Under the pieces are notes generated by a model. The model saw nothing but the letters and a program-made list of their open reading frames with translations. It was not told the DNA's origin and did no database searches. The position numbers and the translations under genes were made by a program. From assembly GCA_963514005.1 (NCBI GenBank), contig OY740804.1, forward strand, positions 19,716,001 through 19,780,000: a stretch of 64,000 bases of DNA, read 5' to 3'. Each line of letters begins with the position of its first letter. Positions within the stretch are counted from its first letter, which is position 1. Positions 24,441 through 54,139 of the stretch are shown here, piece by piece. This DNA is from Raja brachyura. Its lineage: Eukaryota.

Positions 24441-24493
24441 CTTGAGTTTGGAGTGAGGGTTCGTGCCACTATCCATGTCATCCTCAGTCCCAG

Positions 24494-25940: not shown

Positions 25941-26270
25941 GCCAAGTCTGTGCAACTGCATTGGTCAATGACTACAGATGTAGTCGGGTGAACGTCAATA
26001 CCACCCTGTCCGTCCATCTGAAACAGGCGCCCACCGTCCTTCAATGGACCTTCCGCAAGTTGCCAAAATCCCAGCCCTCTGTCATCTGTACCTGGAACCC
26101 GAATGACAAGCAGGAATGCCATGGTATCTACAAGCAACGGGCACACATCTACAACAATGGCACACTGGTGCTGGAGTCAGTCCGTGCAGCTGACGCTGGC
26201 TACTACTGCCTACACGCTGAGTTTAGCAAAGGGAAAAGCATCTTCTTCAGCATGCAGCTATATGTTTTTG
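25941..26270 (+). CDS. Gene B exon 3, IgV domain 2
   Basis: Acceptor TTGCTCCCAG|, donor TTTG|GTGGGT, 330 nt; close paralog of exon 2. Confidence 0.9.
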
Positions 26271-27503: not shown

Positions 27504-27577
27504 CCTCCTCATCGAGGACAGTTCGATCACCACTTCCACTGCTTCTCGGACTGATGCTGCTGAAATGCTCCCTGTAG
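27504..27577 (+). CDS. Gene B exon 4, probable GPI-anchor signal ASSSRTVRSPLPLLLGLMLLKCSL*
   Basis: Acceptor TTCTTTCCTTTTCAG|, phase 1. Small residues, spacer, hydrophobic end. Donor AAG|GTAAAC at 27596/27597. Confidence 0.78.
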
Positions 27578-27939
27578 TGACTGAGTGGGATTAAAGGTAA
27601 ACGTTCCAGAGCATTATCAACAGCTGACAGTCCCAGAACCCATGAACTCGTCCACCCTCTTAATCTGCCCAATGCTCAAGCGCTCTCCCCTTTCAGACTT
27701 CCCACCTACTATATCCCCCATAGTCTACTAATTTGCTCCCTATTACCATCTCCCCATCCCATTGATTCTCCTCCCTCAGTTCATTGCAGACTGTCCCCAT
27801 CCATTGAATCCCCTCCCACAGTCCAAGGACACCCGTCCCCTTCTCCGATTTTCCCCATGTTAAATTGCACTTACCCCTGTGTTCTGAATGCCTCGTCAGC
27901 AAACTGTTTGACAACTCCTGCCTTTTTATTGTCCCACAG

Positions 27940-28370
27940 GACGTCCCAGTCTGAACCGTGATCCAAGCTGACGAGATCCAGCAGACGGTTGAGGATTTTC
28001 TCGTCACGGAAGCCGGAGCCCTTTCCATTGGAAAGGTGTGAATGTGGGCAGCTGGGAGTGACCGCAAGACCCTGGTGACACTGGACCAGGAACCCCATCT
28101 GACATCTCGATCTGATGCTGTCTGCTGCCCCCACCCCATTAGACCCCATGGGGTGTGGGGCAGTTCCCTTCCCCTACCCCTCCTGAGGTCAAACTCTGCC
28201 TGTCTGCACTTATACTTACCCTGGGCGGAAAGAGTGAAGTACCTCCAGAATTTACCCTCTGTGGGGACTGTGGGAGAGTTGTGGAGAAGAGAAAGTGTTG
28301 TGGGAGTGGGAAGGGTTCCTGGATTGGGGTGTAGTGAAGCTTCAACTCATCCAAATAAAACGCTAGATAT
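27940..28370 (+). other. Gene B terminal (3' UTR) exon with polyA signal
   Basis: Acceptor GTCCCACAG|; AATAAA at 28354; homologous to 48210-48661. Confidence 0.7.
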
Positions 28371-29534
28371 TAATGGATTCTCATTGTCCGCTCCTCTTCA
28401 TTTTAGGCCATATAGCTGATACCAGCAGAAGTGGAGAGGACACAAGGACTCAGAGTTCACTCCTGATGTTTTCTGCATTGAAAACTGCTTGTAGCTACCT
28501 CCTTGTATTCTGACCATGGCCTGTTAACATCGCTGTCACCTCCTCCCTCTCTTGAGCGCCTCACTTTAATGACACGCAACTGGCGCGCATCATGTTTTTT
28601 GCATGAGCAGGCTTACTGGACCAAAGATGTGTGCCTATGCCCAAGCACTCTGAAGTAGGAAGTGGGTATCAACTGCTTAGTAGAACCGCCGAGCAGAGAT
28701 AAGGCAACCTTACATCCAAGCAGATAAAGGAGCACAATTCATTTTTGATGTATATAAAATTAACGATATGGGGAAGCTGAGCAATAAAGGATGTTTATCC
28801 TGCTTGGGGGCAAAGCTAATGGGCCTGAAGATAGACACAAAATGCTGGAGTAGTTCAGCGGATCAGGCAGCATTGCTAGAGAAAAGGAATATGTGACGTT
28901 TCGGGTCAAGACTTCTTCAGTATTTTGTGTCGATATTTGGTGTAAAGCAGCATCTGCATTCCATTGTTACACACTCTAATGAGCCTGACTCATTTTCCCC
29001 ACCTTGTCACTACTGTAGATACTGCCATTTCAAGTTTCTCACTTTTTTAGAGGGTGGGACACACACTATGAATCATTGGACCCCATGGAGTATTGAGGAG
29101 CAGAGGGATCTAGGTAGTGAAGAAGGTGTAAGGAACGTCCCCTCCTCCTCCTCTTCCCCCCTCTCTCCCCCACACCCACCCCCTCCCCCTCCCCCCATGC
29201 TGCTCAGTTAGCCATCTCTGCCAGTGCCTACAGCAATTGTAAGGGAAACTGACTGTATCCAAAGTCGGCAGCGACTCTCATTCCCAAATGATGGGCGATT
29301 CCATTGTATCATCAGCACGGCACCACTTCGTTGGCACAGCCGAGACCAAAGATGGCAGAGATTGCAAAACGAAATGCAGGAGTAACTCGGCGGGACAGGC
29401 AGCATCTCTGGAGAGAAGGAATTGTGACATTTCGGATCGAGACCTTTCAGGCCAAAGATCAGAGAGCTCCGCTCTATAACCTTTGCTTCAGAAGAGGCCT
29501 GCTCGGTCTGGCAGAGTCAGAGCACGCTGTGTTA

Positions 29535-29770
29535 AAGAAGGAACTGCAGATGCTGGAAAATCGAGGGTACACACAAAGCTGGAGAAACTCAACGGGTGCA
29601 GCAGCATCTAAGGAGCGAACGTTTCGGGCCGAAACCCTTCTTCAGAGGTCTGAAGAAGGGTCTCGACCCGAAACGTCGCCTATCTCCTTCGCTCCTTAGA
29701 TGCTGCTGCACCCGCTGAGTTTCTCCAGCTTTTTGTGTAACCCACCCTTCTTCAGACCCTTTTTGTGTAC
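29535..29770. mobile_element. Penelope terminal repeats in inverted orientation
   Basis: ~29570-29646 is the near-perfect reverse complement of ~29649-29740. Confidence 0.75.
29646..29681 (+). ncRNA. Minimal type I hammerhead ribozyme motif (Penelope-associated)
   Basis: AGGT-CTGAAGA-A-GGGTCTCGACCC-GAAA-CG-TC-GCCT: intact core, stem II, palindromic ACGT helix III, 4-bp stem I. Confidence 0.7.
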
Positions 29771-29809
29771 CCTCAGAGCAAGCTGTGGTTGGTGGAGAGC
29801 TGCTGTGGC

Positions 29810-30032
29810 GACGGGCACTGCGCCAGCTGCGATTGGTGGAGGCGGGCGGAACGGGGAGGATGCTGATTGGATGGAGCGGGGTGAGCGAAGATTGGAGGAA
29901 AGGGGGGAGTCCGTCGTAGTTGGTGGAATTGGCGGAGACCGTGGGCCAATTACAGCTGGCCAGGCGGAAGGAAGGGGGAGCAAGATGTGATTGGTGGCGG
30001 TGCACGCGCCGGACCAACCCCCGGCCTTCGCC
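29810..30032 (+). promoter_or_regulatory. Gene C promoter with six CCAAT boxes
   Basis: ATTGG at 29832, 29866, 29891, 29928 and 29990; CCAAT at 29946; CpG-rich. Confidence 0.65.
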
Positions 30033-30072
30033 ATGATTGCCGTCCTCGGGCTCCTCTTGGCTTTTTGGGCCG
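30033..30072 (+). CDS. Gene C exon 1, signal peptide MIAVLGLLLAFWA
   Basis: GCCATG start, hydrophobic leader, phase-1 donor GCCG|GTAAGG. Confidence 0.85.
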
Positions 30073-30419
30073 GTAAGGCGAGGTCTTCATCCCCAACTCG
30101 TTCCCCATCAAACTCCCCTCACCCTGCCTCCCACTGACTTCCATTCCTCCTTCTCAAGGAATAGGAGGGCACCTGGAGACAAGTGACATGGTCAGGCAGA
30201 GTCAACGTACATTAATGGTCAAACCGTCGTCGACAAATGATTTTTTAAAAACTAGCAGATGAAGGGAAACCAGTGGATGTGATGTATATGGACCTTGAGA
30301 AACCTTCCCTCAAGCCGTCTACACTTCCCCATGTGTCCTATTTGCCTCCCCAACCACACCCTTTTTCAAACTCCCTTTTTTGTTCGAATTCTTGTGTCTT
30401 GTTTCCTCTCCGTTTCTGT

Positions 30420-31655
30420 TTCGTTTATTGTCACGTGTACCTCGGTACAGTGAAAAGCTTTTGTTACGTGCTAACGACTCAGCAGAAAGATTACAACCGT
30501 GCCGTTTACTGTATGGATACATGATAAGGGAATAACGTTTGGTGCAAGGGTAAGCCAGTAAAGTTCGATCAAAGATGTGTTCTAGGGTCACCAATGAGGT
30601 AGATAGTAGTTCAGGACTGCTCTCTGGTGGTAATTGCAGTGAAGAAAGCGAATGGTATGTTAGCTTTCACAGCAAAAGGATTTGAGTATAGGAGCAGGGA
30701 GGTTCCACTTCAGTTGTATAGGGTCTTGGTGAGACCACACCTGGAGTATTGCGTATAGTTCTGGTCTCCAAATCTGAGGAAGGACATTATTGCCATAGAG
30801 GGAGTGCAGAGAAGGTTCACCAGACTGATTCCTGGGATGTCAGGACTGTCTTATGAAGAAAGACTGGATAGACTCCGTTTATACTCTCTGGAATTTAGGA
30901 GATTGAGAGGGGATCTTATAGAAACTTACAAAATTCTTAAGGGGTTGGACAGGCTAGATGCAGGAAGATTGTTCCCGATGTTGGGGAGGTCCAGGACAAG
31001 GGGTCACAGCTTAAGGATAAGGGGGAAATCCTTTAGGACCGAGATGAGAAGGACTTTTTTTCACACAGAGAGTGGTGGGTCTCTGGACCTCTCTGCCACA
31101 GAGGGTAGTTGAGGCCAGTTCATTGGCTATATTTAAGAGGGAGTTAGATGTGGCCCTTGTGGCTAAGGGGATCAGAGAGTATGGAGAGAAGGCAGGTACG
31201 GGATACTGAGTTGGATGATCAGCCATGATCATATTGAATGGCGGTGCAGGCTCGAAGGACCGAATGGCCTACACCTGCACCTAATTTCTATGTTTCTATG
31301 GTATGATGAGTCAGTTGCCTGATAATAGTTCAGAAGAAACTATCCCTGAATCTGGAGGTGTGCGTTTTTACACTTCTATATGTTTTGCCAGAGGGGAGAG
31401 GAGGGAGTGGCCAGGGTGCGACTCGTTCTTGATTATGCTGCTGGTCTTGCTGAGGCAGCATAAGGTATCAATTGAGTCAATGGAATTGAGGTTGGTTTGT
31501 GTGATGGTCCTGGGGTGCATCCACAATTCACTGCAATTTCTTGCGATCTTGGATGTAGTTGTCCCCAAACCAAGCTATGATACATCCTGATAAAATGCAT
31601 CCTTTGACACATCTATGGAAGTTGGTGAGAGTTGTTGGGGACATGCCGAACTTCC
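30420..31655 (-). mobile_element. Rex1/Babar-like LINE 3' fragment interrupted by a CR1
   Basis: Minus ORF ending SIIKNESHPGHSLLSPL resembles the Rex/Babar ORF C-terminus. Confidence 0.55.
30636..31300 (+). mobile_element. Young 5'-truncated CR1
   Basis: Highly similar to 10499-11170, with TTTCTATG tail. Confidence 0.95.
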
Positions 31656-33199
31656 TAAAGGGCCTGTCCCGCTATTTGCGAGTTTAGGAGAGTTTGCGCT
31701 CGTCACAAGCTCACAGCATGGTTGACACATGGTCGTAGGCTGTCACTGGCAGGTCTCCTTCATAGTCGAGAGGAGTTCCCGCATAGTGGTTACTATTCAT
31801 GGCCTCTGTTTGGTCGAGGAAAATCTTTCAACAAGGCGAAAATTTTTCTGCAAGTAAAAATTGGTCGGCATGGAGAAAATTGATACTTTTGAACTCATAG
31901 TGCAGTGGTAGTGGGGTCACCATGTCGTTGTAGGTAGTCGTCGTCGCCGTAGGTAATCTCCTTTGCTGACCGGGCATTTTAATTGGCTCATTGGGGAAAA
32001 AAACATAAGCAAGAGTTTTCAAAACCAAGGAAAACCAACCGGTAATGTTAAATGCCCGTTAGATTTCACAGCTGTGTATGTTTGGCTTATTAAAAGTTGT
32101 CTGGCTTCTTAAAAGTGTCTCCACTCCTTCTCCCCCCCTTCTCTCCCCTTTTGTTCAGGGCCATAGAAAATAGGTGCAGGAGGAGTCCATTTGGCCCTTC
32201 GAACCAGCACTGCCATTCATTGTGATCATGGCTGATCATCCCCAATCAGTAACCTGTGCCTGCCTTCTCCCCATATCCCTTGATTCCACTAGCCCCGAGA
32301 GCTTGTGAGTGGCCAGAATGAGGCCACTCACAAGTGGGAGAACAGAACCTCGTTTTTTGCTTGGGTACCTTACAGTCCAACGGTATGAACATTAAATTGT
32401 TTTATTTCAAGGAAACTTTGCCAATCACGCCTCTTTTTTCCCTGACTCTACCTTGACACTGGTACGTACACAAGCCTCCCTGTCCTCTCTAACAATATAC
32501 CACCCTCTGGCTTCACATTTCACAACTCTTTTTTTGAATTGAATTGAATTGAATACTTTATTGTCATATGTGACAAGTCACAGTAAATTCTTTGCTTGCA
32601 TACCCAAGGTATGCAAATGGCTCCACAGCTCAAACTATTCCTACTTTGAAGAAGTTCTCTTCTCTCTGATGTGAGTGCCGTGAGACCCTCTCTCATTGCT
32701 GCCACTCTATGATACCTGTTGCTCTCCTGCTCTTTGTCCATCTTCTGACTTAGATTTGTTACTCCAGCCACATGTACTTCCTCAGCAATGGCCTTCATCA
32801 CCATCTTGTCCCACCTGGCTTCCAGCTCCAGGCCTTCAGGTTCGAGCCCAACAACAGTCTAAGGTATCTGCATTCCATGTACCACTTCTTGCAACAGTTC
32901 TCCCTCCTCGCCCGAGAACAATTGCCTCTGCTAGGTCGTACTGCTTCGCAGCCACCTCCAGACCATGGGCCATAACATAACCACTGCTGGGCCCTGCTGC
33001 CCTTCCTCCTCCCTCCTACTTACCCTTCCCCTACCCCCACCACCCCACACACACCCTTCTCCTCTAAATCCCCGTCTTCCCTCCATGGTACCTCTGCTGA
33101 ATCCCCCCTCGCCTCTCTGCCTTCCTCAAAACTTGTTTGCACCAAGCCCCAACTTCTATCACGTTGTCCCCAGCCCCCCTGCCCTCCCCTCTCCAATGC

Positions 33200-34500
33200 T
33201 GTGATCTGTCCTTAGCTGAGGTCTTACCTTCTGTGTACCCTCGTGTCCACACTTAGTTCTGAACCCGCCATGATGTCAAGCTCATCATCCATCGCCTCCA
33301 GGCCAACTTCTCAGCCAAGGAATCCTGGTTCCTTCACTGACAACACCTTCTCTTGTCTCCAACACTCCTCTTCTTCCTGTATTCCCTCTGCCAGCCTTCT
33401 TCATTCTCTCAACCTCTCTCATCTCCCAACTGCCTGTGCAATATAAACCACCTTGATTTCTCCTCTCCCCATACCCACTTCAATCTTACCCCCTCGAATG
33501 CCCAGCCCTCCACTCAGTACCAATTCCAATATTGTCATCAAGGGAAATGCCGATATAATCTGGCAGGCTGACCTCTACCAATTTGACCCCATGTGCCAGC
33601 TCTCTGAAATCTGCTTATACTACTCCTCGACCATGACTCCGCTGATGATCGCCTGGCCATCATATCACAAACGATCATCAATCCTATTTTCGCCGGCGAT
33701 CTCCCCATCACAGTCCCCAACCTTATAGTTCCTCAACGCTGCACCGCCTGCTGATATTTAGACTTCACTCCTTCCCACCCTGCTTCCTGTAAAGACTCTA
33801 TCCCTCCTCCCAATTCCTCCATCTATGCCGCATCTGCACCCACGATGAGGTTTTCCATACCAAGTCATCGAAGATGACCTCATTCTTTAGGAAACGGGGG
33901 TTCCCCTCTTCAATTATAGATGAGGCTCTCACTAGGGACTCCTCGATATCCCGCAGTTCCGCTCTTGCTCCCTCTCCCCCAATTCTTAACAAGGACAGAG
34001 TCCCCCTGGTTCTCACCTTCCACCCTGTCGGCCGTCGCATACAGCATATAATCCTCCAACATTTTTGCCACCTCCAATGGTATCCCACTACTGGCCACAT
34101 CTTCCCATCTCCACCCCTTTCTGCTTTCTGCAGAGACCGTCTCCTCCAACCGTAGGAGATGCAATACCTGTCCCTTTACCTTCCCCTTGACTCCCTCGAT
34201 GAACCCCCAACAGTCTTTTCAAGTGAGGCAGAGGTTCACTTGCACCTCCTCCAACCTCATCGACTGTATCCGCTGTTCCAGGTGTCAACTCCTGTACATC
34301 GGCGAGACCAAGCGCAGGCTCGACGATCATTTTGCTGAACATTTCCGCTCAGTCCATCTTAACCTACCTGATCTCCTGTTTGCTCAGCATTTCAACTACC
34401 CCTGAAGAAGTCTGAAGAAGTTTCTCGACCCGAATCGTCACCCATTTCTTCTCTCCAGAGATGCTGCCTTTCCCACTGAGTTACTCCAGCATTTTGTGAC
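33200..34500 (+). mobile_element. Decayed Penelope-like element (RT C-terminus, GIY-YIG, terminal repeat)
   Basis: MTSFFRKRGFPSSII..RVPLVLTFHP; FTCTSSNLIDCIRCSRCQLLYIGETKRRL; degenerate hammerhead at ~34412. Confidence 0.85.
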
Positions 34501-34772
34501 TGCCTGTTTCTATCTCCTTCCCAAAATATATAAACGGTGCTGCCCTGGAAAAGTCATTGTTCTGCCAGCTCCCGCACTACCAAATACCTCGGCTCTATCT
34601 AGTTGTCTCCCTCCCCCCCCCCCCCCCCCCCCCCCCCACAGTCCCTTCAACCTACATCCAAGATACCTCCCACACTCTTTAACACATTAATAACTTCCAG
34701 TTTCTAGAGCCCCATCACCTCATCTTTACCATGGATACCCTGTCCTTTTAAATCTCCATTCCCCATCAAGAG

Positions 34773-35075
34773 AGCACAGTGGTGTAGCTATAGAGTTGTT
34801 GTCTTACAGCGCCTGAGACCTGGGTTCGATCCTAAATCTGGGTGCTTATCTGTACGGAGTTTGTACGTTCTTCCTGTGTCCTGCATGGGTTTTCTCTGAG
34901 AACTTCGGTTTCCTCCCACACTCAGGTTTGTAGGCTAATTGGCTTGGTATAAATGTAAAAATAGTCCCTAGTGTAGGATGGTGTTAATGTGCAGTGATCG
35001 CTGGTTGGTGCAGACTCGGTTGGCCGAAGGGCCTGTTTCCATGCTGTATCTCTCAACTAAACAAAACTAAACTAA
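34773..35075 (+). mobile_element. tRNA-derived V-SINE (HE1-like)
   Basis: A-box-like TGGTGTAGCTATAG, B box GGGTTCGATCC, central TGTACGGAGTTTGTACGTTCT, LINE-like tail GGCCGAAGGGCCTGTTTCC and (AAACT)n. Confidence 0.8.
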
Positions 35076-37980
35076 TATTTCTCACCAACCTAGTCAGCCC
35101 GTGCCTATCCCCCACCTCTTAACAATCATCTCCTATTCCTACTCTCATATTTCCCTTTTATCCACCCTCTTTCCCCACTCCCCCGTTCCCATCCACCCAT
35201 ATATTTTCCTCTGGATTTACATCTTATACCTCCTCTTTATTTATTTGACACCTTTTTCACCTCTAGCCTTTTGTCACATTCCACCCATCTGCCAATCACC
35301 CACTCCCTTTACATGTATCCACCTATCACTTGCCAGACTTTTTCCCATGCCCATCCTTCTTTTGCAGCTTTCTGCCCCCTACCCGAAAATGTGTCTGACC
35401 AATCCCTCCAGGGAGGCTGCCTGACCCGCTGAGTTCCTTCAGCACTTAGTTTTTTTGTTCAAATTTGCAGCATCCGCCAATGTGTTGTCTTCTCGTTCTT
35501 CATCAACGTAATCCCCCATCCAGCCTTTACTCCTCCCTCCTAACTATCCCCCCAACTTTCAGACCTCCCTCTACCTTCCAGGCCATTGCTTGTGCTTCCT
35601 TCTCTCGCTTCATGCAAATATACATTGAACTCTCCCTCTGATCTTCAATATGACTTCAACCCTTATGAGCCTTCTGTTCTTATTAGCCTCCCCTTAGCAC
35701 TCTCCTTCTATACTCCAGTACCACTCACAAACCCATATATGATCCGTTATATCTTATTAGCCTCCACCCACCTCTCTGTCTCCATCCTACATAATCCTTT
35801 CCTTCAGCTCACCCACAACTGCACCCACCACCATTCCCTCTAACTTGCTTCCATCCTGCCTTCCGATCCTTGTCCATTCCCTTTGATGAACCCTCAGTCA
35901 ATCTGTTCCATCACCATTTATTCCTACTCTCCATCCCATAGTCCCTCGCACTAACATCCTGCTCTCTGACACTATCTTCAACCCTCTTGCATGCTTCCCA
36001 CCAACACAATCTCTTTTTCCTCAAATATTCCCTCTTGCAACACCCCCTCCTTTCCTCCAAAGTTCCTTTAATCTGATTCCCAACCAGATTCTCCTTCCAT
36101 CCCTCTGATTCCCTACATCTGCCACTCCCTGTTGCTTTCTTGTATACTTCAATGCTTCCTTTCAGTATCTTCCTTTAACTTCAGCTGAACATTTCCCTTG
36201 ATTGCCACCCCAATCCCCTCTCATTCAACCTAACCCTCCTTTAATGCCTCCCGTGGTCCTCCCTCACATCCTCTATCCAAAATATAATCCTCTCCTCCGA
36301 TGTTCTAATGATTTGGCCACCTTCAATGCAAAACCAATCTCTTGCTCAGACCTTTGCACAAATCCTCGCTTGATCACTCCAAAGGTGTTTAGATCAATAT
36401 TTATAACCCTCTTTCAATTTATTTCTCTATTTTCTGCCCTATTCAGTCCAACCTTACATCTTCAGTCTCTTCCTGCAACTCTCATTCAAGCCCAACCTCA
36501 ATTCTTACCGACCCATCCATTGATCACTTCTTCTAGCCCTTATCCCCTCCCATCAACGATCTCTCCATCCTTCTAACTAAGTGGTTCCTTTAATCCTATC
36601 TCAATCCCACCTCAATGCCTCTTTGGGCTCCTTCCCATTACCTCCTACAGTACTTCTCGCCGGTGCCATAATTTCCTTGCATCCAACCACTGTCCATGAC
36701 CAGGGTTCCTGTCCTACTTGTACACTTGCCCAGGCTCGGGTTCTGGTGCCCCTGTACACTTGCCAAGGTTCCTGATCCCATGGTCGCGGTTCACTCTTTG
36801 GGGCCTCATGTTGGGGTACCGAACTCTCTCCAGTATTGTGTTCCCTGACTGCTCCCCCTGACACGTTCCTGCAGCCCCTACCACCCCCTCCCTCAATGGC
36901 CCCTGCCAGACCTCCCCCCCCTCTCCCCATCCCCTGAACCCCTTAACATCCCCCATGGACCACACCCCCCCCCCCCCCCCAACCCATCCAGACCAACCAA
37001 CACCAACCACCACTTGACTCCCCATTCCCAACAACATGTTTCCCCTGACCCCACCCAACGCCACTCACAAACCTCCTGACCCTCCCTATACTCAAGGATT
37101 TGTCTCACCCAGGATCTTTCTCTTTATCTTTTCCATCCCTTCCCCCACCCCAGGTTTGTTACTTAGCTCATTACCCACGCCCACCTGGCTTCAACTTCTC
37201 ACCATCCCCCATCTCAATTGGTTCCTCCTAGTAGCTCCTGGCTCTCCTCCCTCTCATCTCTTTACACCAGCTTTCTCCCCTCTCCACTCTCAGTCTTGAT
37301 TCAGAACCTCAACCCAAAATATTGAGCATCCTTCTGCCTCCACAGATGCTGCTAAACTCCAAGCTCCTTCAACAGTTTTATTTTTGCTCCTTGGTCATCA
37401 AATGGTATAATTCTGCTATTCTCTCCTCCCTCAACCTCATCTGCAACCACATATCCATGTTCCTACCTCCTCCCTCTCTCCCTCGTCATTCTCTTTTCTC
37501 ATCATCCCCTCTCTCTACACTTCTCCCTTCTTCCTGCTCCCTGCAGTTAATTCTCCCCATCCACTCTTCTTCTGTTACGGCTTCATCTTTCACCCACCTT
37601 ATTCCTTTCGGGAAACATTTCTCTCTGTGCCATCTTCTTTTCAGTCCCTCATTCTGTGTCCACCATCCCCAATTTTTCATGTCTTTCTCTCCTTCTCAAC
37701 CTCTTACCTCACACCATGTCTCCCTCTCATACCCTTTCTTCCATTATTTTCCTTATATCTTGTCGCTCACTACTCAGCTCTCTATACCCCGTTCCCACTC
37801 TCTCTTCCATTCTTTTGACCTTTCCAAATGCCCCCCTTCACGTCTGCCCCCCTTTCCTTCCATCCCTCTCCCGCCCCCTTGCCGCCCCTCGCCCCCTTGT
37901 CCTCACGCCCTGATCTGCCTGTACCCCCTCCCCTTTACTCTCTTTCTATTCCCTCCCCTTTCTTTCTACCTCCCCTCTAA

Positions 37981-38290
37981 AGGGCCTGTCCCACTGTACA
38001 AAGTAATTCAAGAGTTCTCCTGAGTTTCCCCTGATTCAAACTTGGAGAATTACGGTAATAGCTGCTCTTAGGTACTCGGGGCTCTCGTGGACACGCTCCG
38101 CACCTGTTGAAAAAACTTTACGAGCTTACCGCGTTTCCCGAGTACCTACCGTTAGCGTTACAAGCCGCTAAGAGACGTCCCAAGCTCTGACGTACCCGCT
38201 ACGTTCATTTTACGTACTTGCCACAAGTTTGATTTTTTTTTTTAAACTCGGGAGAGCTCTTGGGTAAACTCATCTAGTGGGACAGGCCCT
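37981..38290. mobile_element. PIF/Harbinger MITE
   Basis: Perfect 15-bp TIR AGGGCCTGTCCCACT and TAA TSD on both sides. A related left end starts at 31659. Confidence 0.88.
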
Positions 38291-38366
38291 TAACACTTTG
38301 TTTATTCTATCTCTCCCTCCTTCCACTCCCCCCCCCAAACCCCCGCCCCCCATACCCTCTCTGCAG

Positions 38367-38696
38367 GCAGGACCGAGGCTGTGATGTTCCACACCGAGTA
38401 TCTGATGGGGAACATTAATTCAAGAGTGGTCTTCCCACCCATGACGAACACGGAAGCTATCTCCCTTACCTGGACCTTCCGTAAATCGACAGGTTCGAAG
38501 CCAACACCAGTGTGCATTTGGTACTTCAGCTACCCCATCAAATGCTGGGGGACCTACATCAAGCGGGCTAAGCCACACGGCGACGGCTCCCTGACCATCA
38601 CGCAGCTGCGGCAAACTGACAGCGGCTGGTACTATCTCATTGCCAACATGGGATTCAACAGGGTGATGAACCGAAGGCTGCACCTGTCTGTGCAGA
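38367..38696 (+). CDS. Gene C exon 2, IgV domain
   Basis: Acceptor CTCTCTGCAG|, donor CAGA|GTGAGT, 330 nt. LTWTF, DGSLTI, DSGWYY, LHLSVQ. Confidence 0.9.
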
Positions 38697-41600
38697 GTGA
38701 GTGCTGAACCCCACCCTACGTGACCATCAGGCCACGGTCTACAGGCAGTTGGCGGTGTTCCGTTAACATTACCCCACCTCATGGGACCACCAGGCCATGG
38801 TCTACAGGCAGTTCATGGTGTACCATCAGTATCACTTAGAACTATAGTTGTACAGCACTGAAATAAACCCTTAGGCTGACATCATCCATGCCAACCATGC
38901 TAGTCCTATTTACCGGCTTTGACCGATATCCCCTAAACCTTTCTTATCCATGTACACCTGTTCAATGTTTTTTAAATGTTGCCATTGCACCTGGGTTAGT
39001 CTGAGGCCACCCCTGCCTCACCAAATTCCAAGGCATCATTGAAATCATCTTCACCCAGCATGACAATTGGAGTTGGAGGGCAATCACCAATGATAATGAT
39101 CAAAATGAAGTCGGTCTCAGCTCAGCTCCCACCAGAGCTTGCACCTTTACCTTGACAATCTGCCGGCAACTGAAATCACAGACAAAACATCCGAGAATTC
39201 CCTGAAAATAAGCCTGTACGGTGTGATGTCAAGCTGTTGCCACTTTTTAGTGCTCTCTGACAGCTGATCTTGATTACTACTGATTTTGTTTCAGTGCCTC
39301 CCAGCTCATCGAGAGTCAATTTTTTCCTTTAAAAGGTTTTATTCAATAATCACATTTTCATCAATTAAAACCGCTATCTATGCAGTTTGCAAACAACAGC
39401 GTTAAAATTCCAACGTCAGCCATGTCCATGACGCATCTCAGCCCCCTCCCCCCCCCCCCCGGCACCCTCTATTCTTGGAGGACCTCTGAACTTCCTGTGG
39501 ACATCGTGTGCTGCCTCTCAAGGGACACAGATGTAATCCTAGAAGAGGGTTCCCAGAGGAGCTGACTCGTCAAGAGCATTTGGCTGAAATGCAGCTAAAC
39601 CTTGAGAAACATCCCCTTTATATATACAAACAGGGCTGCAACTTCTCACACTCCATATACACATGGTACATAAGAGAAGAGATGGATGGCTGGCAAGTTG
39701 GTGAACCAATTTAAAAGATCTATCACACACCCCTGCTCTACAACACTCTCCACTCTGTCCTCAATATAAAAGTGGAGGACTCCCATGTAGAGATCTCCAC
39801 TGGGGACCCTCCTCGCTGTCAAATAGTTAGACAGACTGTCATGGCTATTTTTTTCCTTAACAATGAGCTTTTATTGCATAAACACAGTTACAATGCACTG
39901 CAGAGATCAAAACTGCCCTGCAGTTCGCAAACATTAGTCATCAAATTACAACATCCACAACAGCAACTTTTTTTTAACTTCCAAAATATAACTTCAGAAT
40001 AAAAAAAAATACAAAACAAAAACTACAAACTTCAAACATTCGCAGCGCATATACATTCATTACTGTTGTGTCGTACTCAGTAGTGTTCACATCTATCTTT
40101 AAACAAATCATCCTTGCCATTCATGTGGCCTCCTGAGGGGATATCCCTTCCCTTGTTTGAGGAATGTCCCCACTGTACTCTGCCCCTCAATGTCCAGCAG
40201 TGAAAGGTTCCAAGACTAATCATCCCCCAAAAGCCTTAGTGTTGGCTGCACCAAACGTCAGTATATCCCTCATCACGTACTCTTGCTGTCTGGAATGGCC
40301 CAGTTGACAACGTTCCCTGATGGATGTCTCGCTTTGCTGGGAGGATAAGAAGTTTTGGACAGACCTAAGAGTGACTTTCACAGAGTTGGTGATCTTACAG
40401 CATCACTAGACATCTGTTTCTAAACGTTTCCCTGGAATAACGTGTAAATCAGAGAGTCCTTGGTTACAGAGCTGATCAGGATGAACAGGGACAAGGACCC
40501 TTACATCATTCTCCAGACCTTCATAGTAGATCCACACTCTATGAAGAGGTGGACAACCGTCTCCTCTCTGCAACAACTGTCCAGAGGGCTGTGACAATGT
40601 CTAGCTGACTGGCACATTATACGGCAGCAGTGCCAGACCCATCCTTCGCAACACCAGGGACAGGTAGAGCTCAGCAGGGAATGATAAGGTGCCCAAGTGC
40701 TTTGACTCTATGCACAGCTTGATACAGTCGCACATAAAGACGGCCATCAGGATGAGGGCAACATTGGGCACATAATTGCCCCGGTTGTCTGCAGACGTGC
40801 ATCATGATCCGTTGGACCTGCTCCATCTTTGACCCCCCCCTTATGTGCTCATCTTTCCTGACGGATTCACAAAGGCTTATGTAGCACAAACAAGAAGGGA
40901 GATTGGGCAACCCTACCTGACTCTATACCTGATGGAGAATCTGTCCATTTCTCACCCATTGATTTGGACTGTAGTACTGATATCAGTGTATAGCAGCTGA
41001 ATCCAATTCCTGATTGCCTACAGCACGTCCATCTTATATGTGTGCAATATCTTGTCGAAGGCCTTCTGGTCCACACTGACCAGGCATGTTTCCAACCTTC
41101 CATCTTACATGTAGGTGATGATATCCCTACGCAGTGCTAGGCTGCCTGAGATAATCCTGACCCAGCCCCTGTGAACCTGCCCCGCAGAGTGGGCTCTGGT
41201 GATGAAGGTGATCTTGCCTTTGATTGTAGATTAATCAACTTGCCGGCTTACAGCCTTTCAGTGTTCCTCCTCTCAGATACTTCTCCCCCCACCGCTCCCA
41301 GACTGCAAAAGGATGAGTTGCTGAACGTATATCTGGAGTTGGCACAATTCCTTCTGACTTCTGACCCTGTCTTGCTTTCTGTACCCCTTTGGGATGAAGA
41401 ACCTCTTGATTTTATCCTTTTATCTTGATTGCTTCCGACCAGTGTATCGGAGAGTCAAAGAGGGGCTTCACAGTTCTCCAACCTGCATAGTTCCTCAGCG
41501 TCCCCTGGGGACAGCAGTTTGACATTTGACTTCCACATCCCCTTACTGTCTTCTGGTCCTCCTGTAGGTGAGTCAGAGAAGAATGTGTGTAGTTATATAC

Positions 41601-41869
41601 ACACCAGCTACTGACTACCTTCCAGAACCACAGGAATGGCTCCATGCAGGAATGGCTCCATAGGACATCCTATTGCACTCTCCTTCCACTAATGGTGTCA
41701 TCAAGTACCTGTTAACCTTTTATGAGGCATTGTACGGCAGGGTATATAAGTTGGCATCAGTCCACAAAATGTAGCCCAGGTCCAAATGGCACAAAATGTA
41801 GCCCAGAGTCCCAAAATGATCCACCCTATCACGGGGTGATCCTGATCAAGGGAGAGCAAGTCAACTGAA

Positions 41870-41970
41870 TAATCAATCTGAAGAAGGGTTTTGGCCCGAA
41901 ACGTTGCCTATCTCCTTCGCTCCTTAGATGCTGCTGCATCCACTGAGTTTCTCCAGTCTTTTGTGTATCC
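41870..41970 (+). mobile_element. Penelope terminal repeat with hammerhead-like core
   Basis: CTGAAGAAGGGTTTTGGCCCGAAACGTT starting at 41878. Confidence 0.7.
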
Positions 41971-42886
41971 CTGAATAATCAGTCCTCTAGGACAAGTAGA
42001 TCAGGTTCCAGACCAGATGTATGTTATCCTGGATGGACAGCCCAGGGCTATGTAGGTCTAGTTGGGTAATCACTTTCAACCATTTGGAGCCCAGACTATT
42101 TGCCATGGCCCATTTGAGACTATTCCATGTTGAGGAGGGAGACCGGGTGCCAGTTCCTCAAAAGGCAGAGATCGCTTCTTGGACACCAGGACAACAACTG
42201 CCTTGCACCATGAGTGGGATGCCCCCAGATAATCATGGCAGAGGAAACAGCTGAGAAGATCTCTCGGCACTCATGCATTCTTTGCAGGTCAACAGGGTCA
42301 GTGACAATGAGGATCACACGAGGAGCATAGGCCGAAGGACCACTTCCATGTCTGGCTGGTACAAAACCAGACTTGTTAACGTCTTCTGAAGTAGATACAG
42401 GAATGGCTCCACTCAGATGTTATACAATTGGTCAGATGCAGCAGCCTAGTTAGAATCTTTGCTGGAGGAAATGAGAGCTGTCAAGGATCTGTTGACTTTG
42501 ATGAGGCACTCTGCAGCAGCCTATAAAAACAAGACCCGGGTCACAAAATTCATTCTGAATCCAAACACCTGCAGAGTCCCCAACAGTGATCTACCCTCCC
42601 AAATGCCTTCTCGTGGTTGAGGGGGAGAAAGGCAGCTGGTACACCAGTCTCCTGCAGGTAGACAGCCCAGAACTATGTAGGACTGGTCAGGGTAGATCAC
42701 TTGGCACAGTACTGAACGCAAATGGCCATTGCTCTGGCACAGACCTCGTCCAAGCAGAGGAGAGAGACCAGATGCCATTTCTTCAAGAGGCAGAGATCAC
42801 CCTTTTGGGCAGCAGGCCTACAATAGCACTCCACCAGGACAGGGACATCTCTCTCGTCACCAGGCTCTCCTTCAGGATGTGTAGTC

Positions 42887-44121
42887 CAGGCACGTGCCGT
42901 CAGGGTAGGCACTGCCTACCCTGACTAAAATTATAACATAGTATTAACTAAATATAAATAATAAAGGCATGGGATAATTTTGCCTATGTAAGAGATCGAT
43001 CTCTTAGGTAGGCATAATTCTCCGTGCCTTTCATCCGCAGCGCTTGTAACACGGGAAGGTCTGTGCAGCCCATGTGCCATCAGCGCTGCCTGAAGCCGTC
43101 ACTTTCAAGCGGGGCTGAAGGCAGCAGAAATTCTGCCTCTTAGGTAACAAAGAGAGAAGAATGGAGCTCGTGGACCAATAATGTGGTAAGTACATTTTGT
43201 GTTGATGTTTTTAAATACTGTATTTCCCGGGGTGTTGGGGTGGGGGGAGAGCTCCTTTCACAGCGTTTGGGGAGTCTGGCCCGGGGTAAAGTTGCAGGAA
43301 GGGCACGAATGTTATGAATGAGGGGATTGGGATAATGCCACTTGTGACGCTCCTTGCACGGAGGAGTGCAATGACAAGGCATTGAGGCCGGGGGGGGGGA
43401 GAGAGAAGTAGCTCGGGTGGCTGAGCGGCCGCTGGGCCGGACAGTGGAACCAGCTGCCATCTTAGCACCTTCTGCTGGTCCCCGCTCACCTCTGGCAGCT
43501 CTCCATCTAAAAACCTCTCCTGCCGCTCGCTGGCCTCACTCATGTCCTTAAATTCCGACAGCACGATTGAGGTTGCTCGGCTGTGGGACTTTAAGGATTT
43601 GCAGGAAGCTGCTGACATGAGCGAAGTCGGCGAACGGCAGGTGGCAGGTGTTCCGACGGAGAGCACTGCCAAAGGTGAGCGGGCCGGCAGAAGGCGCTGA
43701 AGTGGCGGCCAATTCTGCTGTCGGGTCCCGGTGGCCACCCGTAGCTCCCTGAGCTGCTTCGGGTCCCGATGGCCGCTCGTAGCTTCCCCAGCTACAGTGC
43801 GTGGCTTCGCGCCCGGAGAGCTGCGGTAGCGGTGGGTGAGTGAGTTACTGGCATTATCCCCGACACCCTCCTTCTCAACACTCGTGCCCTCCCCACAACT
43901 TTACCCCTGGCACAGACTCTCCACACGCTGTGAAAGGAACTGTTCCCCCAATTGGTCTAGGACTAGGAAGCCTAGGAAGGGAAAATTGAAATGTCACTGT
44001 CTTAAATCTATTTATTTATTTATTTATTTATCGGCGATAACAATCTGCGCATGCGCGGTTAAATTTTTTTTTAAAGCGGACTGAGTGCCTACCCTGAGTA
44101 ATTACTCACGGCACGTGCCTG
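42887..44121. mobile_element. Non-autonomous hAT transposon, copy 2
   Basis: TIRs CAGGCACGTGCCGT / ACGGCACGTGCCTG; 8-bp TSD GTGTAGTC at 42879-42886 and 44122-44129; colinear with copy 1. Confidence 0.92.
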
Positions 44122-44129
44122 GTGTAGTC

Positions 44130-44930
44130 CTATGTGTACAAGGACACCCAGGTCTCGTGGCACCTCCCCTTTTCCTAATCTGACACCATTCTGATAATAA
44201 TCTGCCTTCCTGTTCTTGCCACCAAAGTGGATAACATATTTATCCACATTATACTGCATCTGCCCATTCACCCAACCTATCCAAGTCGCCCTGCAGCCTC
44301 AAAGAATCCTCACAGATTACATTGCCACCTAGCTTTGTGTCATCCACAAATCTGGAAATGTAACCTTTAATTCCTTCGTCTAAATCGTAGATATATTGTA
44401 AATAACGGGTCCCAGCACTGAGCCTTGCGGCACCCCACTAATCACTGCCTGTCATTCTGAAAAGGACCCGTTAATTCCTATTTTTTGCTTCCTGTCTGCC
44501 AACCAGTTCTCATAAGCCACCTGAGAGTTCATAAATATAACAGAATGTAGACCATCATCCTCGACCTCGAGGGATAGTCATGACGATGAGCGAAGACAGA
44601 AACACAGAAGACCGAAACTTGTTTAATTGGTCGGCCATTTCCTTGTTTCCCCATTATAAATTTACCTGTTTCTGACTAAGGGACCTACATTTGTCTTCAC
44701 TAATCTTTTCCTCTTCACATATCTATAGAAGCTTTTACAGTCAGTTGTTTAAAACCCCGTAAGCTTTCTTTCATGCTCTATTTTCTCCAGTCTTAACCCG
44801 TTTGTCCTCTGTTAAATTCTAAATTTCTCCCAGTCCTCTGGTTTGCTGCTTCCACTGGCCAATTTATATGCCTCTTTCCTTGGATTTAACACTCTCCCTA
44901 ATTTCCCTCATTAGCCTTGGTTGAGCCGTC
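44130..44930 (-). mobile_element. CR1 fragments, minus strand
   Basis: QMQYNVDK..IHFGGKNRKADYY; homologous to 17900-19200. Confidence 0.85.
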
Positions 44931-44931
44931 T

Positions 44932-46440
44932 TCCAAATTTTTCAAAACTCCTTAGATTCTGGAGTAGTTCCTGAGGATTGGAGGGTAGCTAATGTACCCC
45001 ACTTTTTAAAAAAAGGAGGGAGAGAGAAAACGGGGAATTACAGACCAGTTAGTCTAACATCGGTAGTGGGGAAACTGCTAGAGTCAGTTATTAAAGATGG
45101 GATAGCAGTACATTAGGAAAGTGGTGAAATCATTAGACACAGTCAGCATGGCTTTACGAAAGGTAAATTATGTCTGCCGAATCTTATAGAATTTTTTGAG
45201 GATGTAACTAGCAGAGTGGATAAGAGGGAACCAGTGGATGTGTTATATCTAGACTTTCAGAAGGCTTTCGACAAGGTCCCACATAAGAGATTAGTATACA
45301 AACTTAAAGCACACGGTATTGGGGGTTCAGTATTGATGTGGATAGAGAACTGGCTGACAGGCAGGAAGCAAAGGTTAGGAGTAAACGGGTCCTTTTCAGA
45401 ATGGCAGGCAGTGACTAGTGGGGTACCGCAAGACTCAGTGCTGGGACCCCAGCTATTTACAATATATATTAATGATTTGTACGAGGAAATTTAATGCAAC
45501 ATCTCCAAGTTTGCAGATGACACTAAGCTGGGGGGTAGTGTTAGGTGTGAGGAGGATGCTAGGAGGCTGCAAGGTGACTTGGATAGGCTGGGTGAGTGGG
45601 CAAATGCATGGCAGATGCAGTATAATGTGGATAAATGTGAGGTTATCCACTTTGGTGGCACAAATAGGAGGGTAGACTATTGTCTGAATGGTGGCAAATT
45701 ACGAAAAGGGGAGATGCAATGAGACCTGGGTGTCATGGTACGCCAATCATTGAAAGTAGGAATGCAGGTGCAGCAGGCAGTGAAGAAAGCAAATGGTATG
45801 TTAGCATTCATAGCGAAAGGATTTGAGTATAGGAGCAGGGAGGTTCTACTGCAGTTGTACAGGGTTTTGGTGAGACCACACCTGGAGCATTGCGTACATT
45901 TTTGGTCTCCAAATCTGAGAAAAGACATTCTTGTCATAGAGGGGGTACAGAGAAGGTTCACCAGACTGATTCCTGGGATGACAGGACTTTCATATGAGGA
46001 AAGACTGGGTAGACTTGGCTTGTACTCGCTAGAATTTAGAAGACTGAGGGGGGATCTTATAGAAACTTACAAAATTCTTCAGGGATTTGGATAGGCTAGA
46101 TGCAGGAAGATTGTTCCCGATGTTGGGGAAGTCCAGGACAAGGGATCACAGTCTAAGGATAAGGGGGAATTCCTTTAGGACCGAGACGAGGAAAACATTT
46201 TTCACACAGAGAGTGGTGAGTCTCTGGAATTCTCTGCTACAGAAGGTAGTTGAGGCCAGTTCCTTGGCTATATTTAAGAGGGAGTTAGGTGTGGCCCTTG
46301 TGGCTAAAGGGATCGGGGGTATGGAGAGAAGACAGGTACGGGATACTGAGTTGGATGATCAGCCATGATCATATTCAATGGCGGTGCAGGCTCAAAGGGC
46401 TGAATGGCCTACTCCTGCACCTATTTTCTATGTTTCCCTG
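44932..46440 (+). mobile_element. CR1 LINE, 5'-truncated
   Basis: RT ORF pieces 45216-46368 and 3' tail. Confidence 0.95.
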
Positions 46441-46459
46441 TTTTCTTTTTACGGCAGAG

Positions 46460-46975
46460 GTGCTATATTATGTTCAGTTCTGGGCACCATGTTATAGGAA
46501 AGATGTCAAGCTGGAAATGGTATAGAGAAGATTTACAAAGATGTTGCCAGGACTAGAGGGCCTGAGCTATAAGAAGAGTTGGCTGGAGCGCATGAGGTTG
46601 AGGGGTGATCTTATAGAGGTGTGTAAAATCATGTGAGGAATAGATTGGGTAGATGCACAGAGGTTCTTGCCCAGAGAGGGTGAATCTAGGACCAGAGGAC
46701 ATGGGTTTAAGGTGAAGGTGAAAAGATTTAATAGGAATCTGAGGGGTAACGTTTTCACACAAAGGATGATAGGTATATGGAACAAGCTGCCAGAGGAGGT
46801 AGTTGAGGCTGGGACTATCCCAACGTTTAAGAAGCAGTTAGGTACTGTACATGGATAGGGCAGGTTTGGGGGGATATGGACTAAACGCAGGCAGGTGGGA
46901 TTAGTGTAGCTGGGACATGTTGGCCGGTGTGGGCAAATTGGGGTCTGTTTGCACACAGTATCACTCTATGAATAT
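46460..46975 (+). mobile_element. CR1 3' fragment, second subfamily
   Basis: VQFWAPCYRKD and FTQRMIGIWNKLPEEVV; tail matches 55280-55360. Confidence 0.85.
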
Positions 46976-47449
46976 GACAAAGGAATTCTTCCTCGTGTAA
47001 GTCCAAGGACCCCAGGCTTCACAGAAATCCAAGGCGTTGATCAAACCGTCCTTACAGAATTAAACCTGGCTAGGCATTTGGGGTAGGAAGGAGAACATCA
47101 ATGTTAATGACCATGCAATGAATTCAGGAGTGGGCTCCCACCATTACAAGCGCACTTGGCAATCCGGCAGCCACAGATGCCCCAACGATGCTCAAAATAC
47201 AGAGTTAAAAGCATTGAAAATTAGAAAACTGTGTCAAAAGAAAGTCTCTGCAGAATGGTATCAATCCAACTTCCAAAGTCTCACCACTTTTTATTGCTCC
47301 ACAACAAATGATCATAATTTTTTGTCAGTGCCTCCCCGATCAGTGGGAGAGCTTCTCTCGGTGTCTGACCCTGGACAAGTGCGATGGGAGAATGTAGAGG
47401 GAACTTCTCGTGGTCACATTTGTTTATTTGCCCTTTGCCTCCTTTTTAG

Positions 47450-47526
47450 GCTCATCAACATCACGGATCATTCCCTGTTCCCTCTCACTCGTTGCTGCTC
47501 TGTTGGTTTGGAAGTGTTTTTCATGA
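47450..47526 (+). CDS. Gene C exon 3, probable GPI-anchor signal SSSTSRIIPCSLSLVAALLVWKCFS*
   Basis: Acceptor CCTCCTTTTTAG|, phase 1; donor AAG|GTAAAA at 47539/47540; same layout as gene B exon 4. Confidence 0.78.
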
Positions 47527-48209
47527 TAAGCAGATCAAGGTAAAAGCAATACTTGATCCCTTTCATGGCCCATAGGTTCTCCTCATCACAGACCCTTCCC
47601 ATCATTGAATACCCTCCCACAACCCACCAACAATCTCCGCTATTATAGTCTCCCCATCTATAGCCCACGTTCACTCCCCATGTTGCAAACTCTACCCACT
47701 CACTGAATTACTGCCCCCCCCCCTTTCTACAGCCCATGGACGCTCTCTCCCATCACTGACACTCCCCACCTACTGAATCTGCCCCCTGCCTATGGACTCT
47801 CTCCCCATCACTGACTACACACCCATTGAATACCCTATCACAGCCCAAGGGCACCCGTCCCTCTTCTTTGACTTTCCCCGACTGAAATGGCATTTACCTC
47901 TCATCCACCCTTTTAATCTGCCCAATGCTCAGGCTCCCTCCCCTTTCAGATTTCCCACCTTCTGTATCTCCCATGGTCCTCAGATTGAATTCTCTTCCTC
48001 AGGACCAACTTCCCCACCTGTTGATTCTCCTCACTCAGTTCATGGCCACCAGTGCCTCATTACTGATTGTCCCCACCCACTGAATCCCCTCCCATGGTCC
48101 AATGACACCCGCCCCTCTTTTCCGAGTTTCCCCGGCTGAAATGGTATTTACCTCTACGTTCCGAGTGCCTCTTCAGCAAACTGTTTTGCCAACTCTTGCT
48201 TTCCCGCAG

Positions 48210-48675
48210 GATGTCCCCGTCTGAGCCATGAGCCCCAGCAGACCGTTGAGGATCTTCTCGTCATGGGAGCCGGAGCCCTTTCCGTCGGAAATGTGTGAAT
48301 CAGGACAGCTGGGAGTGACTGCAAGACCCTGGTGACACTGGGCCAGGAACCCCATCAGACATCTCGATCTGATGCCGTCTGCTGCCCCCTGCCCTCACCC
48401 CATTAGACCCCATGGGGTGGAGGGGAGTTCCTTCCCCTACCCCTGTTGAAACTCAGCCTGTCTGCACCACCACTCACCCTGGGTGAAGGGGAGGGTCCCT
48501 CTTCCTGTCTGGGGTTGTGGTAATTGATAGAGGAGGTAACACCTCCTCCAGCATTTACCCTGTGGATGGAATGAAAGGGGTTCAAATTAGAACATCAGTC
48601 GTCAGGAAGAGAGTTGCATAAGGGCTGGCATTGGATGGAGGCACCTGGACGTTCCAATAAAACCGTCAAATATTA
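48210..48675 (+). other. Gene C terminal (3' UTR) exon with polyA signal
   Basis: Acceptor TTCCCGCAG|; AATAAA at 48656; paralog of the 27940 exon. Confidence 0.7.
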
Positions 48676-48789
48676 AACATATGAAGAACTGGCGTCTTCG
48701 TTTTGTGCCTGATTATGGTGGGTGCAAGGGAGCTGTGATGGAGTCTAACGGTTTAGAGTTGTGGGGGGAGGTACAGGTGTTTAGCAAAG

Positions 48790-54070: not shown

Positions 54071-54139
54071 TGTAATATACCCCCACTATCACTCTCCCTG
54101 TCATTGGCAGGGGTGCTCTCTGTGTCTCACAAATGTCAT

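What the first reader, a model, noticed from the sequence alone, without database searches (positions are those of the whole stretch)
27504..47539. Paralogous small GPI-signal exons hidden from the ORF track in genes B and C
Seen: phase-1 exons 27504-27596 and 47450-47539 encode ASSSRTVRSPLPLLLGLMLLKCSL* and SSSTSRIIPCSLSLVAALLVWKCFS*. Both end at AAG|GTAAA and precede homologous 3' UTR exons. The stops lie 19 and 13 nt upstream of the last junction, so they should escape NMD. Established: small omega residues, spacer and hydrophobic C-terminus is the GPI signal layout. Inference: the V domain sits directly on the anchor with no stalk, as in Thy-1-like minimal proteins.
Basis: partly seen in the sequence, partly recalled or inferred. 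Interest (0 to 1): 0.7.

Follow-up and report, generated by a model that had tools for sequence, protein, structure and literature searches.

The report
Lipid-anchored CD48-like receptors lacking second domain
Two neighbouring immune-type surface genes of a vertebrate end in a small exon that most likely attaches the protein to the membrane by a GPI lipid, as in CD48, but they lack the usual membrane-proximal domain; this is a new layout of a familiar kind, predicted from sequence only.

Summary
Both exons have the stated coordinates, phase, peptides, AAG|GTAAA donors and stops 19 and 13 nt before the junction. They are not chance. Of 234 acceptor-like AGs, only 3 passed a hand-made GPI rule, and these two are the only passes between their V exon and the next gene's leader. 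The exons are homologous with coding constraint (pS 0.82, pN 0.35).

They end two genes in a four-gene cluster of Ig genes whose V domains lack the canonical disulfide. Neighbours A and D have CD2/SLAM-type four-cysteine C2 domains. No C2 or credible stalk exon precedes either tail.

Correction: gene C is leader-V-GPI (148 aa), but gene B has two V exons (leader-V-V-GPI, 264 aa). It is single-V only if one is skipped. The better analogue than Thy-1 is CD48, specifically the engineered one-domain CD48d1.

GPI attachment is predicted, not shown (about 0.72). No GPI predictor, transcript or full-length homologue was available. The roughly 10-residue unstructured linker is missing, and the tails are short with a lysine. 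CD2/SLAM versus CEACAM placement is unresolved. Verdict: new variant of a known kind.

The parts
19955..20009 (+). Gene B leader exon (signal peptide, phase-1 donor CCG|GTAAGG), behind a CpG-rich promoter with CCAAT boxes
   Evidence: CpG o/e 1.08 in the 300 nt upstream, reached by 2 of 637 windows
24488..24823 (+). Gene B first V exon (V1), phase 1-1, starts with the end of the signal peptide; no B-F disulfide, C'-C'' cysteine pair plus one extra Cys
   Evidence: Pfam V-set E 4.3e-05, below cutoff; unnamed relative 98/111 identical
25941..26270 (+). Gene B second V exon (V2), phase 1-1, tandem duplicate of V1 (about 52% aa identical); no leader between V1 and V2
   Evidence: Pfam V-set E 2.5e-07 and Receptor_2B4 at cutoff, 21 bits
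27504..27596 (+). Gene B GPI-signal-like exon; likely omega Ala241 or Ser242; stop TAG 27575-77, second stop TGA, 19 nt to donor
27940..28375 (+). Gene B non-coding last exon, AATAAA at 28354 (3' end approximate)
30033..30072 (+). Gene C leader exon (phase-1 donor CCG|GTAAGG), six CCAAT/ATTGG boxes in the 300 nt upstream
   Evidence: count reached by 2 of 637 windows
38367..38696 (+). Gene C single V exon, phase 1-1; basic (pI 9.9), no N-glycan sequon, C'-C'' cysteine pair only
   Evidence: Pfam V-set E 1.4e-06; model pLDDT 87.7 with the last strand running to residue 108 of 109
47450..47539 (+). Gene C GPI-signal-like exon; likely omega Ser124-Ser126; stop TGA 47524-26, second stop TAA, 13 nt to donor
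48210..48680 (+). Gene C non-coding last exon, AATAAA at 48656 (3' end approximate)
2565..16800 (+). Context: gene A, leader 2565-2607, V 3317-3646, C2 7645-7929, TM 14182-14319, cytoplasmic exon 14868-14949, probable non-coding exon from 16525 (end not fixed); 291-aa type I receptor
   Evidence: 19-residue hydropathy of the TM 3.01
53315..62662 (+). Context: gene D, leader 53315-53360, V 56649-56990, four-cysteine C2 62387-62662; rest not found in the window

Best explanation
Genes B and C are intact paralogues in a tandem cluster of CD2/SLAM-like Ig genes. Each ends its coding sequence in a small exon that encodes a GPI-attachment signal. Shown from sequence: leader, V exon(s), tail exon and non-coding last exon are in phase, with no C2 or credible stalk exon, and the tail exons are under coding constraint. 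Inferred: the protein enters the ER, GPI transamidase cuts at one of the first small residues after the last V strand (Ala241/Ser242 in B; Ser124-Ser126 in C), discards a 22-24-residue propeptide and adds GPI. C becomes a single V domain of about 107 residues on a lipid, a natural counterpart of engineered CD48d1. B becomes V-V-GPI of about CD48 height, or single-V if an exon is skipped. Further inferred, weakly: with no cytoplasmic tail they act as adhesion ligands or releasable decoys for a transmembrane family member, possibly A or D, as CD48 does for 2B4 and CD2. The mRNAs escape EJC-dependent NMD because the stops are under 50 nt from the last junction.
For: Exon geometry and phase. 3 of 234 acceptor-like sites pass the GPI rule, these two with the highest hydrophobicity. 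Homology of the tails with pS 0.82 versus pN 0.35, Fisher p 6e-4 on rounded counts 17/21 and 17/48; their dN (0.47) is below that of the B/C V exons (0.64, 0.91). Small omega and omega+2 residues and no proline at omega+1 match the mutagenesis rules (PMC2119539 abstract; PMC10491789 passage). 19-residue hydropathy is 1.30 (B) and 1.85 (C) against 3.01 for the true TM of gene A. No extra V or C2 profile hit anywhere in the window. Relaxed exon scan: 0 candidates in the B V2-tail intron, 2 tiny weak ones in the C intron, both at or in repeats. V exons intact with dN/dS about 0.5; CCAAT/CpG promoters. A CD48 V domain joined straight to its GPI signal reached the cell surface and worked (PMC2195552 sections 5, 11, 14).
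Against: No transcript, protein or GPI-predictor evidence. The roughly 10-residue unstructured polar linker before omega is absent: those positions are the last beta strand. The hydrophobic tails (14-15 residues including a Lys four from the end) are at or below the 15-20 given, and the spacer of C is partly hydrophobic. No full-length homologue with such a tail was found, so conservation across species is untested. The GPI rule was post hoc and not benchmarked on known GPI proteins. No binding partner is shown; all five V domains are neutral to basic (pI 8.1-9.9), which offers no obvious charge-complementary pair.
Confidence: 0.72

Rival explanations
1. The tail is not replaced by GPI but stays as a short membrane anchor with a four-residue cytoplasmic stub starting Lys-Cys, the Cys possibly palmitoylated.
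For: Lys-Cys is conserved in register in both tails where a GPI tail needs no specific residues. The 19-residue hydropathy of C is 1.85, above the usual 1.6 TM guide value (recalled). The omega-minus linker is missing.
Against: B reaches only 1.30 and its hydrophobic core is about 10 residues, too short to span a bilayer; both are far below gene A's TM (3.01). Both start with a run of small residues at the right distance from the end.
Confidence: 0.12
2. The main products are secreted V-only or tail-skipped proteins; the tail exons are minor or the tailed proteins are poorly processed and degraded.
For: AATAAA lies 166 nt after the C V exon, whose read-through stops after 3 residues. Skipping the C tail exon leaves an open frame of 152 aa into the last exon. 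CD48d1 was expressed at half the level of wild type.
Against: AATAAA occurs once per 2.5 kb here (26 in 64 kb). The skip frame is broken in B (stop after 10 residues). The tail exons show coding constraint, so they are used.
Confidence: 0.08
3. B and C are pseudogenes or truncated relics, and the GPI-like exons are chance or decayed TM exons.
For: Both genes lack the C2 domain of their neighbours, carry repeats in their introns, and have no annotated homologue in the sets searched.
Against: All exons are open and in phase, V exons have dN/dS about 0.5, tails have pN far below pS, promoters look intact, and V1 has an 88% identical relative. The tails show no significant similarity to gene A's TM exon (1837 and 1958 of 5000 shuffles).
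Confidence: 0.05
4. Architecture rival for gene B only (compatible with GPI): V1 and V2 are alternative exons, giving two single-V GPI proteins of 154 and 152 aa rather than one V-V protein.
For: Both are phase 1-1, and V2 keeps a signal-peptide-end-like start, so either can follow the leader in frame. V1 and V2 arose by exon duplication with flanks (upstream flank similarity, 0 of 300 shuffles).
Against: The 1117-nt intron between them has normal donor and acceptor, so nothing forces exclusion. Any duplicated V exon would inherit such a start. The extra Cys of V1 and the Cys at the start of V2 could pair only when both are present (inference, not modelled).
Confidence: 0.25

Closest known systems
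CD48 (SLAMF2) and GPI-form CD58
   Same: GPI-anchored, tailless members of a clustered family whose V domain lacks the canonical disulfide (PMC6963180, PMC5990624 passages). CD48, 2B4, SLAM and CD58 appear among sequence and fold hits.
   Different: CD48 and CD58 have V plus C2; B and C have no C2 (V, or V-V). The V domains here carry a C'-C'' cysteine pair. Orthology is not shown.
Engineered CD48d1 (PMC2195552)
   Same: A CD2-family V domain joined directly to a GPI signal; surface-expressed and able to enhance T-cell antigen recognition.
   Different: Artificial; gene C would be a natural gene of that layout. Ligand unknown. The sections read did not test GPI attachment of CD48d1 directly.
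CD160 and Thy-1
   Same: Single IgV-like domain on GPI (CD160: PMC6355189 passage; Thy-1 layout recalled).
   Different: Both have a long-range intradomain disulfide (CD160 Cys18-Cys86; Thy-1 recalled); neither appeared in the listed hits. Resemblance of layout only.
GPI-linked CEACAMs (CEACAM5-8)
   Same: Disulfide-less N-terminal V domain, tandem gene cluster, GPI signal on its own exon; CEACAMs are among the sequence hits.
   Different: Their GPI exons derive from a TM exon by a stop codon (PMC2832619 passages); here no similarity to gene A's TM exon was detectable. The neighbours' C2 domains have four conserved Cys, the CD2-type pattern.

Membership tests
GPI-anchored proprotein | N-terminal signal peptide | tested here: met
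   Hydrophobic leader exons with strong phase-1 donors; by hydropathy, no SignalP run
GPI-anchored proprotein | Small omega, non-Pro omega+1, small omega+2 | tested here: met
   B positions 1-2 and C positions 1-3 of the tail fit; rules
GPI-anchored proprotein | Hydrophilic spacer, then hydrophobic C-terminal tail with no cytoplasmic domain | tested here: inconclusive
   Order is right; 10-residue hydropathy 2.65 and 2.56. Tails are 14-15 residues with one Lys against 15-20; the spacer of C is partly hydrophobic
GPI-anchored proprotein | Unstructured polar linker of about 10 residues before omega (typical, not absolute) | tested here: not met
   Those positions are the last V strand; feature. 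CD48d1 reached the surface without one
GPI-anchored proprotein | Tail cleaved and replaced by GPI (PI-PLC release, PIGK dependence) | not testable with these tools
   Needs cells; no GPI predictor on hand
CD2/SLAM family | N-terminal V-set domain without the canonical B-F disulfide | tested here: met
   No B-strand Cys and Leu at the canonical F-strand position in the three B/C domains; V fold
CD2/SLAM family | Membrane-proximal C2 domain with one or two disulfides | tested here: not met
   Absent from B and C; present with four conserved Cys in neighbours A and D. So B and C are filed as family-derived paralogues, not canonical members
CD2/SLAM family | Closest sequence or structural relatives are family members | tested here: inconclusive
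   Pfam Receptor_2B4 only at cutoff for V2; Foldseek top ranks shared by nectin-1 and 2B4; profile hits mix JAML, CEACAM, CD48, 2B4, SLAMF5. No tree built
CD2/SLAM family | Tandem gene cluster and conserved synteny | tested here: inconclusive
   Four tandem genes, but no unrelated flanking gene was identified in the window
CD2/SLAM family | Homo- or heterophilic binding through the GFCC'C'' face | not tested
   No complex prediction or assay run
CEACAM family | Disulfide-less N domain with CEACAM-like sequence | tested here: inconclusive
   Weak hits, no better than to other families
CEACAM family | GPI exon derived from the family's TM exon by a stop codon | tested here: inconclusive
   No significant similarity to gene A's TM exon, but A is a distant paralogue (V identity about 16-22%)
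Thy-1 | Single V domain with canonical B-F disulfide (recalled) | tested here: not met
   No B-F pair; gene B has two V exons; Thy-1 not in the listed hits

The most novel reading that the evidence does not exclude
A natural, C2-less GPI branch of the CD2/SLAM family exists in this lineage (probably a cartilaginous fish, from recalled repeat types). Gene C is a one-domain ligand that forms contacts about 3.5 nm shorter than CD2-CD48, and gene B switches height and specificity by splicing V1, V2 or both onto the same anchor. That would be an independent origin of GPI ligands in the family and a natural test of size-based segregation at immune contacts.
Probability: 0.25. Interest if true: 0.6.

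Novelty: new variant of a known kind. Interest (0 to 1): 0.36.

Why it matters
If right, these are two easily missed genes: 23-24-codon tail exons fall below ORF thresholds, and V-only models would be called secreted or fragmentary. They would extend GPI anchoring in CD2/SLAM-like clusters to a layout (V or V-V, no C2, no stalk) that I found only as an engineered construct in the papers read. They also offer a natural test of how close a folded domain can lie to the omega site, and of whether ligand height matters in non-mammalian immune contacts. The impact is modest: GPI-anchored Ig ligands and single-V GPI proteins are well known.

Tried and rejected
Homologue searches: word search with C's V exon at 59-191 aa, 0 of 1 candidate. 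Three-V profile at 196-2000 aa, 0 of 4318 candidates, and at 59-195 aa, 1 of 33. The HMMER search of cluster representatives gave 498 hits, 150 listed; by length and stretch count nearly all are multi-domain proteins matched in part. I examined only the top one, a 122-aa protein matching V1 alone; a second single-domain hit (130 aa, 72 bits) was not examined. Names and cluster members of these hits could not be obtained. So conservation of the tails in other species is unchecked; contig collections for such organisms were not available.

Derivation of the tails from gene A's TM or cytoplasmic exon: not significant at DNA or protein level. Last exon as a conserved coding exon: rejected; the frame open in C is broken in B. 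Hidden C2, V or stalk exon: none by tblastn or profile. The strict exon scan would have missed donors as weak as the tails' own, so it was repeated relaxed: 0 and 2 candidates. Second leader between V1 and V2: the strict scan recovered only 2 of 4 known leaders; the relaxed scan recovered 4 of 4 among 30 hits and none there, with a donor matrix trained on those same leaders. CaaX or KKxx reading of the C-termini: Cys is third from the end and there is only one Lys (motifs recalled). Rfam: 0 matches in the window. Family placement by Pfam, PDB profile, Atlas and Foldseek stayed ambiguous.

Literature: 0 papers held 'SLAM family', 'cartilaginous fish' and 'GPI' together. Listings (20 of 53; 11 of 12; 5 of 5) showed no title on such genes. 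Subscription papers and genome annotations were not searched, and supplements were not read, so these genes may already be annotated.
Full report
Setting. The window is intron-rich vertebrate DNA with many LINE-like reverse transcriptase fragments and short repeats. The repeats resemble those of skates and rays by my recollection; that was not tested. Four + strand Ig genes lie in tandem. A is leader-V-C2-TM-cytoplasmic (291 aa). B is leader-V-V-tail (264 aa). C is leader-V-tail (148 aa). D is leader-V-C2, with the rest not found in the window. All coding junctions are phase 1.

Observation. Every stated detail checks out: coordinates, peptides, donors, stop distances of 19 and 13 nt, and homologous last exons. 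Each stop is followed at once by a second stop. With the 50-55 nt rule (PMC5437961, passages) neither would trigger junction-dependent decay. If the last intron were retained, the protein would be the same.

Is it chance? I scanned 3922 + strand AG sites whose phase-1 frame stops within 60 codons. 234 looked like acceptors, 6 passed a hand-written GPI rule, and 3 passed both: the two exons, which scored highest, and a 51-residue intronic frame at 33302. The rule was written after seeing the candidates and was not benchmarked. Independent support comes from homology. Aligned on the stop codon, the exons share 38 of 75 nt, with fewest matches at third positions (14/15/9). 3 of 10000 residue shuffles, and 11 of 10000 shuffles that keep polar and hydrophobic zones apart, reach the score. 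Synonymous sites are saturated (pS 0.82) while non-synonymous ones are not (pN 0.35; Fisher p 6e-4 on rounded counts). Against this, unanchored local DNA alignment was marginal (39 of 1000 shuffles) and the sample is 23 codons.

Anatomy upstream. Profile and tblastn searches found five V and two C2 exons in the window and no others. A relaxed scan for in-frame phase 1-1 exons found 0 candidates between B's V2 and its tail, and 2 between C's V and its tail (9 and 12 residues, weak donors, at or in repeats). So no stalk is evident. Gene B has two V exons, about 52% identical, with similar upstream flanks and no leader between them. B is V-V by default, though either V could follow the leader in frame. 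V exons are intact with dN/dS near 0.5. A, B and C have CCAAT-rich or CpG-rich upstream regions.

GPI signal. Both tails open with small residues that satisfy the omega, omega+1 and omega+2 rules (PMC2119539, abstract; PMC10491789, passages), leaving 22-24-residue propeptides. Their 19-residue hydropathy (1.30, 1.85) is far below gene A's TM (3.01). Three things are atypical. The unstructured linker of about 10 residues before omega (PMC5054108 and PMC10491789, passages) is replaced by the last beta strand (model of C's V, pLDDT 87.7, from a 5-sequence alignment). The tails are short. Both carry Lys-Cys near the end. A useful precedent is CD48d1, a CD48 V domain joined directly to its GPI signal: it reached the surface at half the wild-type level, bound CD2 beads about 90% less, and still enhanced T-cell recognition (PMC2195552, abstract and sections 5, 11, 14). 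I put GPI anchoring at 0.72.

Family. The V domains lack the B-F disulfide; four of five have a C'-C'' cysteine pair. A and D have C2 domains with four aligned cysteines, matching the two-disulfide C2 described for Cd2 (PMC5990624, passages). Similarity searches do not separate CD2/SLAM from CEACAM, nectin or JAML. B and C fail the C2 criterion, so I call them CD2/SLAM-like paralogues, not canonical members. They would work like CD48, a GPI-anchored ligand (PMC6963180, passages). Single-V GPI proteins exist (CD160, PMC6355189, passage; Thy-1, recalled). GPI exons arose repeatedly from TM exons in CEACAMs (PMC2832619, passages), but I could not show that origin here.

An oddity. The 3' part of the last intron and the start of the last exon are 81% and 89% identical between B and C (Jukes-Cantor 0.21 and 0.12), while synonymous divergence of their V exons is 1.2-1.7 and of the tails saturated. 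The simplest reading is later gene conversion of the 3' block; strong constraint on UTR and intron is the alternative. Either way, the homologous UTR exon is not independent proof that the tails are paralogous; the codon analysis is.

Limits. No transcript, no GPI predictor and no full-length homologue were available. The only close relative examined is an unnamed 122-aa protein, 98 of 111 identical to V1, which says nothing about the tail. Four literature searches showed no paper on such genes in the held library; annotations and subscription papers were not covered and no supplements were read.

Verdict. Real, well-spotted exons; most likely GPI signals; a new variant (C2-less V and V-V) of a known kind of protein. 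Interest 0.36.

Noticed in passing
window 27647-28225 vs 47900-48483: Last-intron 3' part and UTR exon are 81-89% identical between B and C although their coding exons are far more diverged; suggests later gene conversion or a constrained 3' element.
   Followed up: partly
window 22670-24002 and 42887-44121: Two copies (about 84% identical over 1.1 kb) of a 1.2-1.3 kb element with terminal inverted repeats and different 8-bp target duplications, i.e. independent insertions of a non-autonomous DNA transposon; hAT-like by recalled features.
   Followed up: partly
window 14868-14949 and from 16525: Gene A also stops just before a donor (2 nt) and is probably followed by a non-coding exon, so stop-in-penultimate-exon may be a cluster-wide trait; no sequence similarity to the B/C ends. 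Its short tail has one Tyr that does not fit recalled ITIM/ITSM consensus.
   Followed up: partly
window 24488-24823 and 25941-26270: Extra cysteines in gene B (V1 position 15; V2 positions 3, 13, 89) beyond the C'-C'' pair could form an interdomain bond or disulfide-linked dimers.
   Followed up: no
window 38862 and 3827: AATAAA 166 nt after C's V exon and 181 nt after A's V exon; possible secreted V-only transcripts, but background is one per 2.5 kb.
   Followed up: partly
window 38367-38696: C's V domain is strongly basic (pI 9.9) and has no N-glycan sequon, unlike the other four V domains.
   Followed up: no
window 2265-2564, 19655-19954, 29733-30032: Clusters of 3-6 CCAAT/ATTGG boxes with raised CpG upstream of leaders A, B and C but not D, which may have a further upstream exon or a different promoter.
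   Followed up: partly
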